Virus record (IMG/VR): IMGVR_UViG_2585427766_000008
Location: 1-16,666 of that record
DNA from: a virus
Taxonomy: Duplodnaviria; Heunggongvirae; Uroviricota; Caudoviricetes
DNA: 16,666 bases
Direction: 5' to 3' (one strand)
Of the stretch, positions 1,316 to 16,666 are shown in pieces; within the stretch, counting starts at the first letter, position 1, and every line of letters starts with the position of its first letter. The position numbers and the translations under genes were made by a program. Under the pieces are notes generated by a model. It saw only the letters and a list, made by a program, of their open reading frames with translations. It did no database searches and was not told where the DNA came from.

Positions 1316-1475
1316 TCAGCGGTTCGTCCCAGTCTGCCGGGTTTTTGCTGATTTTGCGCACCTGCTTCAGGTCTTTTACCGTCAGGCGTTTCAGTTCAAC
1401 CTGCTCAATTCTGGTGCCTGCAGCAGTGGTGAAGGGATAAGACAATTTAAAAGTATCGGATGGGGTCTGTGACAT
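1203..1475 (-). CDS. Tail assembly chaperone (P2 gpE-like / lambda G-like)
   Basis: 90-aa ORF between tail tube and tape measure, with RBS AGGAG 7 nt upstream of the ATG at 1475. Acidic C-terminal half (PEDLDNMDLADYLQ). Its 3' end overlaps a second ORF in another frame, the usual arrangement for tail chaperone frameshift pairs. Confidence 0.55.
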   Translation of the reverse strand: MSQTPSDTFKLSYPFTTAAGTRIEQVELKRLTVKDLKQVRKISKNPADWDEPLIARSTGLLPEDLDNMDLADYLQLQKRFQLITGMGESN

Positions 1476-1550
1476 GATTGTGCTCCTGTGTAAGTTCAGG
1501 GCAGTATGTCGGGAGAAGCGCGTGACGGATATTAAAGGAGATTAAGAAGA

Positions 1551-6273: not shown

Positions 6274-6741
6274 TTACAGGCAGCGTGCGACAGCAGCCTC
6301 ATAGCTGATGCCTTCTTTTTTGGACAGGGCCACTGCTTTCTGATGCAGGGCCAGACGCTCAGGATCGGCTTCCGCAAACTCTGCCACATCCACCTTCACC
6401 GTGTCGCCGACACGCTCTTTTGTGGCCTGTTCGGCGAAATTCATCACCGGCTCCCCGTCGGAGAGCAATGAACGAAAGGCGGTGGCCAGCGGTGTGCGGC
6501 TTTCCCCCTCAGCAAACTCCACCGGCTTGTCGCCACCGGCGACGGCATCCAGCAGGGCAACCACCACGGAGGAGGCGCGGGGAGCCAGACGGCCCTCTGC
6601 GACCAGTTTTTCTGCAAAGGCCACATTGTCCTTATGCAGTTGCTCCTGTCTGACCTGTGCATCACGCGCATCGCGATCAGCAGCCTGCTGCTTCAGGCGG
6701 CGGTTCTCCTCCTGAAGGGCTTCAATCTCTTCTTTTGTCAT
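6274..6741 (-). CDS. Candidate nested scaffold protein (Mu gpZ-like) from an in-frame internal start within the I gene
   Basis: In-frame ATG at 6739-6741 (residue 217 of the I ORF) preceded by GAGGA with a 7-nt spacer. It would give a 155-aa coiled-coil-rich product (MTKEEIEALQEENRRLKQ...). Confidence 0.4.
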   Translation of the reverse strand: MTKEEIEALQEENRRLKQQAADRDARDAQVRQEQLHKDNVAFAEKLVAEGRLAPRASSVVVALLDAVAGGDKPVEFAEGESRTPLATAFRSLLSDGEPVMNFAEQATKERVGDTVKVDVAEFAEADPERLALHQKAVALSKKEGISYEAAVARCL

Positions 6742-7389
6742 CGATGATTCCTCGTTACTTGCGGAAGACGGCACCTGGCCTGTCTCACTGAATTGCGCAC
6801 CTGCTGCATCCTGCGACGGTGTGTCGCGGTACGCCTCTTCGCGCAGATTGTTGAGCTGCCATTCCGGCAGGACTTTTTCTGCTTCGTCCAGACTGAAGCG
6901 GGCGATCAGAAAATCGCGCAGCTTTCCCCACAGGGAGGCATTCGTGATGGCCTGCCAGTCGGCGAACTCCACCACACCTTCTTCCTGCTCACTGAAGGAC
7001 ACCTGTTTCAGCCCCTTGACGGAAGGTGGCTGTGCCCCGAGAAAGCCCACATGGCGCAGGTAGAGCACGCCGGGCTTCGGATTGGACGGTGAATCCGGGA
7101 GGTAGAAAGAGGCGGACACTTTTTTGAATCGTCCGTCGGTGACCATCTCAGCAAACTGCGGGTCCAGCTGGGCAGGCTCTGCCATCAGATCGACGCCGCT
7201 GAGCGACAGGGCTTTCACCCAGCCCCACGCCGGGTCTTCCGTTCTGGGATGACCAATCACGAGTGGTGCTTCATGGACGGACGGGTCATAGGCTTTCACG
7301 CAGGCGGCAAGATCGTCTGGCGTGAACGGCAGTTTTTTGCCGTGCATATCGGTATGAGTACCGGCTTTAAAAATGTGAATGGCTGACAT
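6274..7389 (-). CDS. Head maturation protease / scaffold protein (Mu gpI-like)
   Basis: 371-aa ORF with a protease-like N-terminal region and an Ala/Glu/Arg-rich coiled-coil C-terminal third; it sits between G and the major head gene as in Mu. Confidence 0.8.
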   Translation of the reverse strand: MSAIHIFKAGTHTDMHGKKLPFTPDDLAACVKAYDPSVHEAPLVIGHPRTEDPAWGWVKALSLSGVDLMAEPAQLDPQFAEMVTDGRFKKVSASFYLPDSPSNPKPGVLYLRHVGFLGAQPPSVKGLKQVSFSEQEEGVVEFADWQAITNASLWGKLRDFLIARFSLDEAEKVLPEWQLNNLREEAYRDTPSQDAAGAQFSETGQVPSSASNEESSMTKEEIEALQEENRRLKQQAADRDARDAQVRQEQLHKDNVAFAEKLVAEGRLAPRASSVVVALLDAVAGGDKPVEFAEGESRTPLATAFRSLLSDGEPVMNFAEQATKERVGDTVKVDVAEFAEADPERLALHQKAVALSKKEGISYEAAVARCL

Positions 7390-7525
7390 TTTGCTGTCCC
7401 GCGTTATGTTGTCGGAGACAGTTTGTGAGAAATGCAGGCCCGGCGATTTTAATCTGCTTTAGAAAACATCAGGGGAGAAGGACAGGGAAAGCAATACGGT
7501 GAACCGGAGGCGGTTATAAAACAGA
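7390..7525 (-). promoter_or_regulatory. Candidate late promoter region upstream of the I gene (PI-like)
   Basis: 136 bp of non-coding sequence between a terminator-like hairpin and the I start. It contains a -10-like TAAAAT on the minus strand. Mu has a C-dependent promoter in front of I. No activator site could be identified by eye. Confidence 0.3.
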
Positions 7526-7557
7526 GGCTGTAAAGCCTTTATAAAGGTAATACAGCC
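7526..7557 (-). terminator. Candidate rho-independent terminator after gene G (end of the lys-to-G transcription unit)
   Basis: Stem GGCTGTA/TACAGCC (7526-7532 / 7551-7557) enclosing the perfect 12-bp palindrome CCTTTATAAAGG. On the minus strand it is followed directly by UCUGUUUUAUAA. Confidence 0.45.
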
Positions 7558-7603
7558 CCTCATTCGCTGGCAATGATAAATCACCCGCCTGAAGAGAGAA
7601 AAC

Positions 7604-8062
7604 TCAGCGACGGGCCGCTGATTCAAGATGGCGGACAATGGTATCGAGGATGGGGATTACCACTTCAGGCTGTAGTTCTCCATCCCCCGTCACCGGCAGG
7701 AACGGGCGGGCCGGAAGTTCAACAGACTCATTACGCCCCGTTTTACCCCCGAACTGGTGAATGGCACCGTAAACAACGTTGGTCCCCACAACAGCCTGCC
7801 GGTCGTCATGGTCGGTTGATACTGACCCCATCAGACGCCCGGTATCCTGCAGTGTCTGCCCGTCACGCTCTTCCGCTGCCAGCGAGGGCATCCACCCCGG
7901 ACGCCCCTCATCAAGAAAGTTAAACTGTGTTTCCGCCAGCAGGGTTCCGGCAATTTTGCGCATCGCGGGCTCCAGGTCTGTGGCAGCAAGATCCAGCGCA
8001 CGGAGGCTCCGGCGCAGGGATTTATCGTTAATGGTGATACTGACCAGGTTATCGGAAGCCAT
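7604..8062 (-). CDS. Virion morphogenesis protein (Mu gpG-like)
   Basis: 152-aa ORF starting 3 nt after the F gene stop; it contains an FNFLDEGRPGW-type segment and has the size and position of Mu G. Confidence 0.7.
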   Translation of the reverse strand: MASDNLVSITINDKSLRRSLRALDLAATDLEPAMRKIAGTLLAETQFNFLDEGRPGWMPSLAAEERDGQTLQDTGRLMGSVSTDHDDRQAVVGTNVVYGAIHQFGGKTGRNESVELPARPFLPVTGDGELQPEVVIPILDTIVRHLESAARR

Positions 8063-14502: not shown

Positions 14503-14849
14503 AGTCCTGTTGCCACAGCCAGGCAGACCGCTGCAACAATCAGTGCACGGCGGATTAACGCAGCAGAAAACACCAGGTGAAGGCCGGTCTGTACCGGGAA
14601 ACGCCCTTCAGCCATCAGCCTGTCGTCATGTTTCAGGTACTGACCGGGACGGGCTTTGGGGAAGAGCGAACGGTCAAGCCAGTAACCCAGCACTGCTGCC
14701 AGCGTGATAAGTGCCAGCTTGTAGATCACAACAGGCAACTGCTGTGGCGAGACCAGAGCGATGATGCCCAGCAACAGCACTGAGGTCAGCAGCCAGCCGC
14801 TGAGGCGAGGTTTTTTAACAGGGGGAATGAATTTTTTCAGGTTTTTCAT
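14499..14849 (-). CDS. Putative holin / small membrane protein with three predicted TM helices
   Basis: The ATG at 14847-14849 is preceded by GAGGAG with a 6-nt spacer; the track's longer ORF starts at a GTG at 14882 with no RBS. The 116-aa product has three hydrophobic segments and sits first in the lysis cassette. Holin assignment is positional. Confidence 0.45.
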   Translation of the reverse strand: MKNLKKFIPPVKKPRLSGWLLTSVLLLGIIALVSPQQLPVVIYKLALITLAAVLGYWLDRSLFPKARPGQYLKHDDRLMAEGRFPVQTGLHLVFSAALIRRALIVAAVCLAVATGL

Positions 14850-14963
14850 GTGTGTCTCCTCGTTTGGTGGAGACAGCATCACAAATGTGGCGGGATACGG
14901 ATTTTAAACAGCGTTAATAGTGAAGATGTAAACGTGCACTGCATGATGACTTTGAAAGAACGA

Positions 14964-15096: not shown

Positions 15097-15867
15097 ATGA
15101 AAATGCAGACATTACCCATCGTTCCATGGATTGGTGGCAAACGCCGCCTTGCAAAACACATCCTGCCGCTGTTTCCGGCGCATGAATGTTATGTGGAGCC
15201 GTTTTGTGGGGCAGCAGCGCTCTATTTTCTTAAGGTACCCGGCAAGATCGAAGTCATTAATGATATCAACGGTGAACTGGTGAACCTGTATCGGGTGGTA
15301 AAACATCATCTGGAAGAATTTGTACGCCAGTTCAAATGGGCGCTGGTCAGCCGGCAGATCTACAAATGGCTGCAGATCACCCCGGAAGAAACACTGACGG
15401 ATATCCAGCGTGCAGCACGGTTCTACTACCTTCAGAAGCAGGCGTTTGGAGGCAAGGTGGCGGAGCACAGCTTTGGTACCTCCACCATATCCCCGCCACG
15501 CTTCAACCTGCTGCGTATTGAAGAAGAACTGTCAGCGGCACACCTGCGGCTTTCCAGAACGGTCATAGAACACATGGACTGGCAACAGTGCATAGAACGA
15601 TATGATCGCCCGCATACGTTGTTCTACTGTGACCCTCCATACTGGGGAACGGAAGGTTATGGTGTGGAGTTCGGACTAGAAAATTATGATCATATGGCAG
15701 ATTTAGCACGCAGGATCAAAGGGAAGATGATTATATCGGTGAACGATATCCCGGAAATGCGGCAGGCATTCAACGGTCTAAATATTCAGTCGGTTGATAT
15801 CAGCTACAACCTCAAGATCACTGGCAAATCCAGTCGCAAGAAGGAACTCATTATCCTCAACTTTTGA
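15097..15867 (+). CDS. DNA N6-adenine methyltransferase, D12 class (Dam-like), orphan
   Basis: 256-aa ORF with the N-terminal AdoMet-binding motif (PWIGGKRRLAKHILPLFP...YVEPFCGAAALYF) and the catalytic DPPY motif (FYCDPPYWGTEGYG). No restriction-endonuclease partner is visible in the window. Confidence 0.85.
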   Translation: MKMQTLPIVPWIGGKRRLAKHILPLFPAHECYVEPFCGAAALYFLKVPGKIEVINDINGELVNLYRVVKHHLEEFVRQFKWALVSRQIYKWLQITPEETLTDIQRAARFYYLQKQAFGGKVAEHSFGTSTISPPRFNLLRIEEELSAAHLRLSRTVIEHMDWQQCIERYDRPHTLFYCDPPYWGTEGYGVEFGLENYDHMADLARRIKGKMIISVNDIPEMRQAFNGLNIQSVDISYNLKITGKSSRKKELIILNF

Positions 15868-16303: not shown

Positions 16304-16666
16304 GGTAATGACTCCAACTTATTGATAGTGTTTTATGTTCAGATAATGCCCGATGACTTTGTCATGCAGCTCCACCGATTTTGAGAACGACAGCGACTTC
16401 CGTCCCAGCCGTGCCAGGTGCTGCCTCAGATTCAGGTTATGCCGCTCAATTCGCTGCGTATATCGCTTGCTGATTACGTGCAGCTTTCCCTTCAGGCGGG
16501 ATTCATACAGCGGCCAGCCATCCGTCATCCATATCACCACGTCAAAGGGTGACAGCAGGCTCATAAGACGCCCCAGCGTCGCCATAGTGCGTTCACCGAA
16601 TACGTGCGCAACAACCGTCTTCCGGAGACTGTCATACGCGTAAAACAGCCAGCGCTGGCGCGATTT
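16304..16666 (-). mobile_element. IS1, partial (terminal inverted repeat plus 3' part of insB; element continues beyond the window end)
   Basis: The plus strand from 16304 reads GGTAATGACTCCAACTTATTGATAGTGTTTTATGTTCAG..., the reverse complement of the canonical IS1 end, followed by sequence encoding the canonical InsB C-terminus. Confidence 0.9.
16319..16666 (-). CDS. insB: IS1 transposase InsB (InsAB' C-terminal portion); 5' end outside window
   Basis: The translation ends ...[88 protein letters not shown], matching IS1 InsB as I recall it. The frame stays open upstream to the window edge (116 codons, 16319-16666). Confidence 0.9.

What the first reader, a model, noticed from the sequence alone, without database searches (positions are those of the whole stretch)
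7390..7603. 214-bp non-coding gap between G and I with a terminator-like nested palindrome and promoter-like sequence
This is the only large non-coding gap inside the otherwise tightly packed module. It holds a hairpin (7526-7557) built around the perfect palindrome CCTTTATAAAGG, followed on the sense strand by a U-rich tract, then ~135 bp before the I start. In Mu, gene I heads its own late transcription unit with an activator-dependent promoter, and the lys operon ends after G, so a terminator plus promoter here matches that arrangement. The palindrome could alternatively be a protein-binding site.
Basis: partly seen in the sequence, partly recalled or inferred. Interest (0 to 1): 0.4.

Follow-up and report, generated by a model that had tools for sequence, protein, structure and literature searches.

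The report
Late promoter, terminator and conserved palindrome
The 214-base gap is the boundary between two late operons of a Mu-like (BcepMu-type) prophage: it holds a terminator-like hairpin, an activator-dependent promoter for the head-protease gene, and a single-copy palindrome of unknown function that is conserved from E. coli to Burkholderia and Pseudomonas phages.

Summary
Genes run on the minus strand. G (7604-8062) and the protease "I" (6274-7389) are separated by 214 non-coding bases. The palindrome CCTTTATAAAGG (7547-7536) sits inside a -19 kcal/mol hairpin followed by GUUUUAU.

The Mu-like reading is largely right, but the parts need reassigning.

The promoter is real by comparison. 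A 16-bp Mor-type activator box (TCTAA-AGCAGA-TTAAA, 7463-7448) lies exactly 20 nt upstream of a weak -10 (CAAACT, 7425-7420). The same box plus hexamer heads the holin and tail operons in this window, and 3-4 late operons in related phages. Each of those phages encodes one Mor-family protein.

The hairpin can act as an intrinsic terminator in this lineage. However, its core, TTTATAAA, is conserved as sequence rather than as structure. It occurs once per genome, always just downstream of G, in relatives whose proteins are only 35-50% identical, including phage B3. That pattern indicates a protein-binding DNA site. Its position matches that of Mu's strong gyrase site, which is unproven here.

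An inverted repeat also spans the -10/+1 region and the Shine-Dalgarno sequence at every late promoter. It can fold only in read-through RNA.

Overall this is an ordinary operon boundary, plus one unexplained conserved element.

The parts
7604..7621 (-). Hairpin TCAGCGGCCCGTCGCTGA overlapping the G stop codon, followed by the T-tract GTTTTCTCTCTT (7603-7592). Weak terminator-like site.
   Evidence: Found by the terminator scan (7 pairs, 4 GC). Fold dG -8.8, z -1.5. Lies in coding sequence conserved at the protein level.
7566..7589 (-). Conserved block GGCGGGTGATTTATCATTGCCAGC containing the small palindrome TGAT-TT-ATCA. Function unknown.
   Evidence: Conserved in Enterobacterales and Photorhabdus relatives only. 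Not a conserved stem.
7523..7560 (-). Nested palindrome / RNA hairpin AGGGGCUGUA-uua-CCUUUAUAAAGG-cuu-UACAGCCUCU.
   Evidence: dG -19.1 kcal/mol, z -4.15, 0 of 200 shuffles as stable. Outer arms pair in this lineage, BcepMu, L037 and L081, but not in the L011-14 or Pseudomonas lineages.
7537..7546 (.). Motif A core CTTTATAAAG (invariant part TTTATAAA). Single-copy element conserved across the family, flanked by GTAAAG / CTTTAC copies.
   Evidence: One copy in the window and one per complete genome. Present 47-92 nt after the G stop in most relatives, down to 26-50% G/I protein identity, and in phage B3. A 17-mer scan of IMG/VR finds it essentially only in G-I gaps.
7514..7525 (-). U-rich tract TCTGTTTTATAA after the hairpin.
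   Evidence: Not conserved in the 85%-identical relatives (CCCGCTTTGCAC).
7464..7513 (-). Variable pyrimidine-rich spacer between motif A and the activator box. In relatives this is where extra genes (morons) are inserted.
   Evidence: Identity to relatives falls to 0.35-0.5 here. The A-to-B distance is 65-106 nt, or 0.4-2 kb where morons are present.
7448..7463 (-). Mor-type activator box TCTAA-AGCAGA-TTAAA: two 5-bp inverted repeats with a G/C-rich 6-bp spacer. Called motif B as the 16-mer 7461-7446. Centred about -43.
   Evidence: Near-invariant in relatives. PWM z 7.0, the top hit in the window. Same architecture as the Mu Pm Mor site AGTAA-AGCCGG-TTAAT (PMC4390567).
7420..7425 (-). Weak -10 hexamer CAAACT, identical to the hexamer in Mu PI. 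Predicted start point G7413/A7412.
   Evidence: 92% of 49 distinct relatives have xAxxxT exactly 20 nt after motif B, against at most 22% at most other offsets and 41% at offset 35, where the ATG sits in the short-leader lineages. Mu PI also has CAAACT.
7393..7422 (-). Inverted repeat ACTGTCTCCG ... CGGGACAGC. The 5' arm covers the -10 end to position -1. The 3' arm covers the Shine-Dalgarno sequence GGGAC (7400-7396). The ATG is at 7389-7387.
   Evidence: dG -10.7, z -4.3. The arms differ but stay complementary across lineages. The same layout occurs at the holin and tail promoters of the window and at Mu PI.

Best explanation
The gap is the junction between two late transcription units of a BcepMu-type transposable prophage.

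(1) Shown by comparison: the downstream half is a Mor/C-family activator-dependent promoter, P_I. A dimer (or tetramer) of the phage's Mor-family protein would bind the 16-bp box at 7463-7448, centred near -43 in place of a -35. It would recruit sigma-70 RNA polymerase to the weak -10 CAAACT (7425-7420). Transcription would start near 7413, giving a leader of about 23 nt with the Shine-Dalgarno sequence GGGAC.

(2) Inferred: the inverted repeat 7422-7393 can pair only in RNA that arrives from upstream, because its 5' arm lies between the -10 and +1. It would therefore hide the ribosome-binding site of I in read-through transcripts and leave it free in P_I transcripts.

(3) Inferred: in this lineage the nested palindrome folds into a -19 kcal/mol hairpin followed by GUUUUAU. 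It probably terminates, or 3'-stabilises, the lysis-packaging-G transcript.

(4) Inferred, least certain: the palindrome core TTTATAAA with its GTAAAG/CTTTAC flanks is also a double-stranded DNA site for a protein. It resembles a promoter-less Mor box (11 of 16 matches to the Mu Pm and BcepMu boxes). The phage activator is therefore my first guess. Which protein binds, and what binding achieves, remain open.
For: Identity of the element. The window is 99.7% identical to Escherichia phage PhiKM (Bcepmuvirus) and occurs in 637 of 5426 complete E. coli genomes.

Gap conservation. A G-I gap of about 185-240 bp is kept in relatives from Enterobacterales, Burkholderia, Pseudomonas and Pasteurellaceae, at 26-94% G and 44-74% I protein identity.

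Promoter. Motif B is conserved and is followed at exactly 20 nt by xAxxxT in 92% of distinct sequences. I trained a PWM on relatives' P_I sites, excluding this lineage. It ranks three coding-strand sites top in the window: 7420-7466 (before I), 14875-14921 (before the holin gene) and 1503-1549 (before a tail gene). In Komp_PAO1_1 and Pasteurella AFS-2018a it ranks exactly four sites top, all heading late operons. PhiKM, BcepMu, Komp_PAO1_1 and AFS-2018a each encode one PF08765 Mor-family protein (E 1e-30 to 1e-43), with a conserved helix-turn-helix. Published Mor-site architecture matches: two 5-bp inverted repeats, a G/C-rich 6-bp spacer, centred at -43.5, no -35 (PMC4390567). The Mu Pm box GTAAAGCCGGTTAA nearly equals the BcepMu box GTAAAGCCGATTAA. 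No sigma-70 -35/-10 promoter is found on the coding strand.

Terminator. The Mu record annotates a terminator at the same relative place. BcepMu's palindrome is a 13-bp stem followed by TTTGGTT.

Palindrome as a DNA site. The core is invariant while the flanks rearrange. It is single-copy. It is retained whichever side morons insert. It lacks a -10 at the promoter spacing in either orientation.

Inverted repeat..
Against: There are no transcript-end or binding data, so everything rests on comparative sequence analysis. The Mor-family gene is not inside this window; it is seen in the 99.7%-identical PhiKM record. The window ends in an IS1 fragment, so this particular prophage copy may be defective.

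The predicted start point (+1) is inferred from the hexamer only.

Against the terminator role: the U-tract and outer stem are not conserved.

Against 'Mor binds motif A': the GTAAA flanks of motif A stay constant while the left half-site of motif B varies (TCTAA / CGTAA / TTTAA). Phage B3 keeps the A core and shows no recognisable motif B by eye in its gap (not scanned). The spacer of A is not G/C-rich.
Confidence: 0.65

Rival explanations
1. The palindrome (motif A) is the BcepMu/B3-family counterpart of the central cis-acting site of transposable phages. In Mu this is the strong gyrase site, which lies 20 nt after G and organises the prophage as a supercoiled loop so that the two ends synapse. 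Here the flexible TA-rich palindrome would be the gyrase G-segment, or the site of another architectural protein. The terminator-like fold would be incidental.
For: Same position as in Mu: the Mu gyrase cut is at 17879/80, between G (ends 17859) and I (starts 18056).

The gap lies at 48.7-51.4% of the genome in Mu, BcepMu, B3, Pasteurella AFS-2018a and Ab30. Motif A is single-copy and is kept despite moron insertions on either side.

In the D3112-like phage Ab30, the 37-bp stretch right after the G homologue is free of transposon insertions in vivo. It was proposed as an SGS (PMC5977238) and holds palindromes.

Gyrase can prefer deformable palindromic G-segments with TA steps (PMC13284261).

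I built a crude G/C-versus-A/T pattern match to the published 133-bp gyrase consensus. It ranks the Mu SGS 5th in Mu. It places rank-2 and rank-4 sites within 40 nt of the G stop in this window (centre 7640) and in Komp_PAO1_1.
Against: The crude score does not centre on motif A, and it finds nothing special in BcepMu, phiE255 or AFS-2018a. Gyrase sites are degenerate, whereas motif A is strictly conserved in sequence. There is no sequence similarity to the Mu SGS core. The central position may simply follow from conserved gene order. In PhiKM the gap is at roughly 55% of a permuted, gapped record.
Confidence: 0.2
2. The palindrome is only an intrinsic terminator (or 3'-end stabiliser) for the G operon and has no DNA-level role. 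Its conservation reflects common descent.
For: Stable hairpin plus U-tract in this window and in BcepMu. Outer arms differ yet pair in several lineages: GGCTG/CAGCC, CCCG/CGGG, GCGGC/GCCGC, AGCCA/TGGCT. The location at the end of an operon fits.
Against: The loop-proximal core is invariant across hosts whose flanking proteins are 35-50% identical, while the surrounding gap has diverged beyond alignment. Many lineages lack any extended stem or U-tract at motif A and carry a separate GC-rich hairpin upstream. In the Pseudomonas lineages the flanking CTTTAC copy lies on the other side, in direct orientation, which cannot pair.
Confidence: 0.12
3. The gap encodes a small protein (a 41-codon ORF, GTG 7584 to TAA 7459, annotated as KP12_270 in Klebsiella phage KP12) or a small RNA.
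For: An open frame of the same length exists in this window and in the 85%-identical relatives.
Against: The frame is absent, or differs in position and sequence, in all other lineages; L011 has none and Photorhabdus has a stop after 7 codons. There is no Pfam or PHROG hit. A-to-B spacing varies by non-multiples of three. No Rfam match. No promoter of either kind lies upstream of it.
Confidence: 0.03

Closest known systems
Phage Mu middle promoter Pm (Mor-dependent) and late promoter PI (C-dependent)
   Same: A 16-bp dyad box with 5-bp inverted repeats and a G/C-rich hexamer spacer centred near -43, replacing the -35. A weak -10; CAAACT is identical to Mu PI. The activator belongs to the Mor/C family (PF08765). 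One such promoter sits between G and I, and others head the lysis and tail operons. An inverted repeat follows the -10 and reaches the ribosome-binding site in Mu PI too.
   Different: The box sequence is Mor-like (TAAAG-N4-ATTAAA), not the C box (CCATAACCCC) used at Mu PI. These phages appear to have one Mor-family gene rather than the Mor-then-C cascade. In the Burkholderiales relatives the ATG lies 7-8 nt after the -10, so the mRNA would be leaderless.
Phage Mu strong gyrase site (SGS)
   Same: A single cis element just downstream of G, upstream of the I promoter, near the middle of the genome. It lies beside a terminator-like hairpin with T/A-rich phased patches.
   Different: No sequence similarity. 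Motif A is a strictly conserved palindrome, whereas gyrase sites are degenerate. Gyrase binding was not tested and the crude motif score is inconclusive.
Fold-back inhibition of IS10/IS50 transposase translation in read-through transcripts
   Same: A sequence upstream of the element's own start point pairs with the ribosome-binding site. Only externally initiated RNA is silenced.
   Different: Here it is inferred from sequence only. It occurs at three late promoters of a phage, not at a transposase gene.
Insertion-free central segment of Pseudomonas phage Ab30 (proposed SGS; PMC5977238)
   Same: It lies immediately after the G homologue (Phage_tail_S) at 50% of the genome. It contains palindromes and is inferred to be protein-bound.
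   Different: The palindrome sequence differs (GGCACAWTGTGCC, two copies). The phage genus differs, and the next gene is not the protease.

Membership tests
Mor/C-activated promoter (Mu Pm / late promoter type) | The phage encodes a Mor/C-family activator | tested here: met
   PF08765 in PhiKM (99.7% identical phage), BcepMu, Komp_PAO1_1 and AFS-2018a, E 1e-30 to 1e-43. The gene itself lies outside this window.
Mor/C-activated promoter (Mu Pm / late promoter type) | 16-bp element with two 5-bp inverted repeats and a G/C-rich 6-bp spacer, centred near -43.5 and replacing the -35 (PMC4390567) | tested here: met
   TCTAA-AGCAGA-TTAAA at 7463-7448 (4 of 5 positions inverted; perfect in the Pseudomonas and Pasteurella relatives). 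Centre at -42.5/-43.5 relative to the start point inferred from the hexamer.
Mor/C-activated promoter (Mu Pm / late promoter type) | Recognisable -10 and no -35 | tested here: met
   CAAACT lies 20 nt after the box. xAxxxT is at that offset in 92% of relatives. The sigma-70 scan finds no -35/-10 pair on the coding strand.
Mor/C-activated promoter (Mu Pm / late promoter type) | The same box heads the other late operons | tested here: met
   The top three PWM hits in the window lie before I, the holin gene and a tail gene. There are four hits in Komp_PAO1_1 and four in AFS-2018a.
Mor/C-activated promoter (Mu Pm / late promoter type) | Transcription starts there and requires the activator | not testable with these tools
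   Needs 5' end mapping and reporter assays.
Intrinsic (Rho-independent) terminator | Stable G/C-based stem-loop immediately followed by a U-tract | tested here: met
   Hairpin 7560-7523, dG -19.1, z -4.15, then GUUUUAUAA.
Intrinsic (Rho-independent) terminator | Structure, not sequence, maintained in relatives | tested here: not met
   The core sequence is invariant. The extended stem is present in only some lineages (mean 6.1 of 12 flank pairs against 4.3 in the null). The U-tract is not conserved.
Intrinsic (Rho-independent) terminator | RNA 3' ends at the U-tract | not testable with these tools
   Needs term-seq or 3' RACE.
Mu-type strong gyrase site | Located between G and I near the genome centre | tested here: met
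   BcepMu gap at 50.7-51.3% of the genome. Mu cut site at 48.7%.
Mu-type strong gyrase site | Match to the gyrase binding motif (centre plus 10.5-bp phased arms) | tested here: inconclusive
   Crude G/C-versus-A/T pattern match to the published consensus. The Mu SGS ranks 5th in Mu. The window's best site is at 7640 (rank 2), not at motif A. BcepMu shows nothing. The real position-weight matrix was not available.
Mu-type strong gyrase site | Preferential gyrase cleavage, and a requirement for fast replication | not testable with these tools
   Needs Topo-seq or in-vitro cleavage assays and deletion mutants.
Small protein gene | ORF conserved in frame and sequence among relatives | tested here: not met
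Known RNA family (Rfam 15) | Covariance-model match | tested here: not met
   No match at E <= 1 in 7000-8000.

The most novel reading that the evidence does not exclude
Motif A (TTTATAAA with GTAAAG/CTTTAC flanks) is a previously undescribed central cis-acting site of BcepMu- and B3-type transposable phages. It would be functionally equivalent to the Mu strong gyrase site: it would bind gyrase or another architectural protein just downstream of G to fold the prophage so that its ends can synapse. If so, 'one central site after G' would be a general rule of transposable phages, with Mu, D3112/Ab30 and BcepMu/B3 each using a different sequence.
Probability: 0.2. Interest if true: 0.8.

Novelty: new member of a known kind. 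Interest (0 to 1): 0.5.

Why it matters
The analysis gives a concrete, testable late-promoter model for a prophage present in about 12% of complete E. coli genomes and for the wider BcepMu family. The model specifies the box, the spacing, the -10 and the start point. It also corrects gene starts: the holin gene starts at the ATG at 14849, not 14882, and the BcepMu gp32 start probably also needs correcting.

Two leads are not explained by the Mu paradigm. The first is a single-copy palindrome that has survived from Pasteurellaceae to Burkholderia, at the place where Mu keeps its gyrase site. The second is a fold-back repeat at every late promoter that would blind ribosomes to read-through RNA. 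That would be useful for a phage that transposes into active host operons. Both leads can be tested with standard experiments.

Tried and rejected
1. Small ORF in the gap: rejected, not conserved.

2. Known RNA family: none found.

3. Canonical sigma-70 promoter: none on the coding strand. By hand, TATAAA inside the palindrome has no usable -35 in either orientation in the lineages checked (window, KP12 and three Pseudomonas lineages).

4. Motif A as a Mor-type promoter in either orientation: no xAxxxT at the +21 offset (0.04 and 0.00).

5. IHF, Fis, Fur and UP-element consensus compared by eye with motif A and with block 7589-7566: no convincing match. Block 7589-7566 resembles a Fur box with one extra base.

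6. RNAalifold on the leader repeat: MAFFT mis-registered the arms and no consensus emerged. I replaced it with per-sequence folds.

7. Gyrase position-weight matrix from Sutormin et al.: the supplement sheet was truncated. I used only the consensus string as a crude G/C-versus-A/T template, and the result was inconclusive.

8. Helical phasing of the A-to-B distance (65/66, 71-77, 83-87, 91, 96, 106 nt): suggestive of 10-11 bp steps, but it spans half the helical circle. Morons break the spacing entirely, so I made no claim.

9. Oram & Pato 2004 and 2006 on SGSs of Mu-like prophages were not available.

10. Literature on BcepMu late promoters: nothing relevant found.

Full report
What is there

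The genes of this window run on the minus strand. G (7604-8062; Phage_tail_S, E 5e-23) is followed, after 214 non-coding bases (7603-7390), by a 371-aa head maturation protease (6274-7389; phrog_976, E 7e-163). This protease is the equivalent of Mu I and BcepMu gp32. Between 1573 and 14882 it is the only gap longer than 14 bp.

The window is 99.7% identical to Escherichia phage PhiKM, genus Bcepmuvirus. The same stretch is present in 637 of 5426 complete E. coli genomes.

The palindrome CCTTTATAAAGG is at 7547-7536. With its outer arms it folds as RNA into a hairpin spanning 7560-7523. The hairpin has dG -19.1 kcal/mol and z -4.15, and none of 200 shuffles folds as well. It is followed by GUUUUAUAA.

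How relatives were gathered

I aligned 20 diverse homologues of the protease. With that alignment I fetched 80 loci from species-representative genomes. I also fetched the complete genomes of BcepMu, phiE255, PhiKM, Pasteurella phage AFS-2018a, Pseudomonas phage Komp_PAO1_1 and Mu.

A G-I gap of about 185-240 bp persists in most relatives. These include Photorhabdus, Pectobacterium, Serratia, Burkholderia, Pseudomonas and Pasteurella, where G and I are only 26-50% identical to the window proteins. Nine lineages have 0.4-2.3 kb instead; where examined, the extra DNA contains additional ORFs (morons).

Conserved islands in the gap

Against a diverged background, four islands stand out:
- a lineage-specific G/C-rich hairpin just after G;
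- motif A, the palindrome core;
- motif B, about 65-106 nt further on;
- a block running from about 35 nt before the ATG up to it.

No ORF in the gap is conserved. No Rfam family matches.

The promoter

Motif B (TAAAGCAGATTAAAAT, 7461-7446) is nearly invariant. In 92% of 49 distinct sequences it is followed, exactly 20 nt later, by a hexamer of the form xAxxxT. At most other offsets that pattern occurs in at most 22%; the exception is offset 35 (41%), where the ATG sits in the short-leader lineages. In the window the hexamer is CAAACT (7425-7420).

I trained a weight matrix on relatives' P_I sites only, excluding this lineage. In the window it puts three coding-strand sites at the top:
- 7420-7466, before I, z 7.0;
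- 14875-14921, before the holin gene, z 5.5;
- 1503-1549, before the tail gene 1203-1475, z 5.3.

In Komp_PAO1_1 and AFS-2018a it finds exactly four sites each. They head the lysis, protease, tail-chaperone and baseplate operons. This is the Mu pattern of Plys, PI and PP.

Each of these phages encodes one Mor-family protein (PF08765) with a well conserved helix-turn-helix. These proteins are 28-30% identical to Mu Mor and C.

Ma and Howe describe the Mor site of Mu Pm as follows. It has two 5-bp inverted repeats in a 16-bp element, with a G/C-rich hexanucleotide spacer. It is centred at -43.5 and replaces the -35 (PMC4390567). Read two bases further upstream, motif B has exactly that architecture:
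- TCTAA-AGCAGA-TTAAA in the window (7463-7448);
- TTTAA-ACCCGA-TTAAA in Pseudomonas;
- TTTAA-AGCGCT-TTAAA in Pasteurella;
- CGTAA-AGCCGA-TTAAA in BcepMu;
- AGTAA-AGCCGG-TTAAT in Mu Pm.

With the hexamer at -12 to -7, the box is centred at about -43. The consensus sigma-70 scan finds nothing on this strand, as expected. I conclude that 7463-7412 is an activator-dependent late promoter.

The repeat at the start site

From the last bases of the hexamer to just before the ATG runs an inverted repeat: 7422-7413 pairs with 7401-7393 (dG -10.7, z -4.3). Its arms have different sequences in different lineages but stay complementary:
- CTGTCTCC/GGGACAG;
- CTGCCTCTAT/ATAGAGGCAG;
- GCTGTGCGC/GCGCACAGC.

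Across distinct sequences the median z is -2.2.

The 5' arm fills the 6-8 nt between the -10 and the predicted +1. The 3' arm contains the Shine-Dalgarno sequence. The holin promoter (GATGCT-GTCTCC...GGAGAC-ACAC-ATG) and the tail promoter of the window are built the same way. So is Mu PI (CAAACTGACTGCTCA...TGAGCAG).

The hairpin can therefore form only in RNA made from upstream. I infer that it blocks translation from read-through transcripts, in the manner of IS10 fold-back inhibition; I recall that mechanism from my own knowledge.

In Burkholderiales relatives the repeat brackets the hexamer and the ATG lies 7-8 nt after it. This implies a leaderless mRNA.

The palindrome

The core CTTTATAAAG occurs once in the window and once in each complete genome. 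It is always 47-92 nt after G, or after a moron that follows G. It is also present as GTTTATAAAC in the G-I gap of the siphovirus B3, in which I saw no motif B by eye (not scanned).

A 17-mer scan of IMG/VR returned 80 loci. About 57 of them are G-I gaps, in either orientation. Those of the remainder that I examined fall in low-GC phages or inside ORFs, and the number is about what chance predicts.

The invariant part is TTTATAAA. The flanking GTAAAG and CTTTAC copies sit about one helical turn away, in arrangements that differ between lineages. They are palindromic in E. coli and Burkholderia and direct in one Pseudomonas group.

Extended stem pairing is above chance on average (6.1 against 4.3 of 12 positions). 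It is absent in several lineages, and the U-tract is not conserved.

This is the signature of a duplex DNA site. In some lineages, including this one, the site also makes a good terminator hairpin.

Motif A resembles a Mor box (TGTAA-AGCCTT-TATAA on the antisense strand, 11 of 16 matches to the Mu Pm and BcepMu boxes). It has no -10 at the promoter spacing in either orientation. Its flanks do not co-vary with motif B. The identity of the binding protein is therefore open.

The Mu strong gyrase site

In Mu the G-I gap holds, in order, the gyrase cut site (20 nt after G), a predicted terminator and PI. The SGS must be central to work (PMC10052514, PMC3820752). The gap lies at 48.7-51.4% of the genome in Mu, BcepMu, B3, AFS-2018a and Ab30.

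In Ab30 the 37 bp immediately after the G homologue are free of transposition events. That stretch was proposed as an SGS (PMC5977238), and it carries palindromes.

I could obtain only the consensus string of the gyrase motif. A crude G/C-versus-A/T template built from it recovers the Mu SGS at rank 5. It places high-ranking sites within 40 nt of the G stop in this window (centre 7640) and in Komp_PAO1_1. It finds nothing in BcepMu, phiE255 or AFS-2018a, and it never centres on motif A.

I therefore keep 'central architectural site' as the most novel reading not excluded, at about 20%.

Verdict

The gap is an operon boundary of a known kind. It has a terminator-like hairpin and a Mor-family-dependent late promoter, now located to the base.

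The promoter idea and the Mu parallel hold. The palindrome's conservation is explained better by protein binding than by termination.

The finding is ordinary in its main function. It carries one element of unknown role that is conserved well beyond what termination would explain, and one unreported design feature, the fold-back repeat at the late promoters.

Noticed in passing
window 14849-14921 (- strand): A second Mor-type late promoter lies before the lysis genes. Box ATTAACGCTGTTTAAA is at 14918-14903, hexamer GATGCT at 14880-14875, and repeat GTCTCC...GGAGAC at 14874-14854. The GTG/ATG at 14882/14879 listed as the holin start lies inside the promoter. The likely true start is the ATG at 14849, giving a 116-aa protein.
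   Followed up: partly
window 1475-1549 (- strand): A third Mor-type late promoter lies in the 97-bp gap before the tail gene 1203-1475. Box TAATCTCCTTTAATAT is at 1544-1529, hexamer CATACT at 1508-1503, and the fold-back repeat at 1504-1481 covers the Shine-Dalgarno sequence AGGAG.
   Followed up: partly
L033-L036, L042-L049, L052, L074, L081 (Burkholderiales relatives); BcepMu L085 18808-18865: The protease ATG lies only 7-8 nt after the -10-like hexamer, and the inverted repeat brackets the hexamer (for example GCCGCC-GATCAT-GGCGGC-ATG). This implies a leaderless mRNA. It also implies that the annotated BcepMu gp32 start (18850, inside the hexamer) is probably wrong.
   Followed up: partly
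L024, L029, L037, L050, L052, L058, L067, L071, L074 (G-I gaps of 0.4-2.3 kb): The G-I gap is a hot spot for inserted extra genes (morons), on either strand. They lie either between G and motif A or between motif A and motif B. Motif A and motif B are both retained in every case where they were detectable.
   Followed up: partly
window 7566-7589: Block GGCGGGTGATTTATCATTGCCAGC is conserved in Enterobacterales and Photorhabdus relatives. Its centre, TGATTTATCATT, looks like a Fur-box core with one extra base. No function assigned.
   Followed up: no
window about 7520 (alignment with KP12 / L002): A mosaic junction sits here. Identity to the KP12-type relatives is 90-95% through G and the hairpin, then drops to 45-50% immediately after the hairpin. 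G is 94% identical to the KP12-type protein and I only 73%. This suggests recombination at the operon boundary.
   Followed up: partly
window centre about 7640 (inside the 3' end of G): This is the second-best match in the window (z 3.76) to my crude G/C-versus-A/T template of the published gyrase consensus. In Komp_PAO1_1 the equivalent site is 18 nt after the G stop. It may be noise.
   Followed up: partly
PhiKM L086 30817-30863 (- strand); window 15097-15867 (+): In PhiKM a high-scoring Mor-type box plus hexamer (z 6.0) lies about 55 nt upstream of the DNA adenine methylase gene on the same strand, overlapping the end of the preceding small ORF. This recalls Mu Pmom. In the window the methylase gene lies back-to-back with the holin gene, and about 1.4 kb present in PhiKM is missing.
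   Followed up: no
window 16319-16585: An IS1 transposase fragment (PF03400, E 6e-48) lies at the early-region end of the window, so this prophage copy may be interrupted.
   Followed up: no
L213 (phage Ab30) 737-800: Two copies of the palindrome GGCACAWTGTGCC lie directly after the G homologue, within and beside the insertion-free segment that the Ab30 paper proposed as a gyrase site.
   Followed up: no
L088 (Pasteurella phage AFS-2018a) 16700-16760: Five TTTAAAG-type repeats at 10-11 bp spacing fill the first part of its G-I gap, where other relatives have motif A. They could be phased bending signals or multiple activator half-sites.
   Followed up: no
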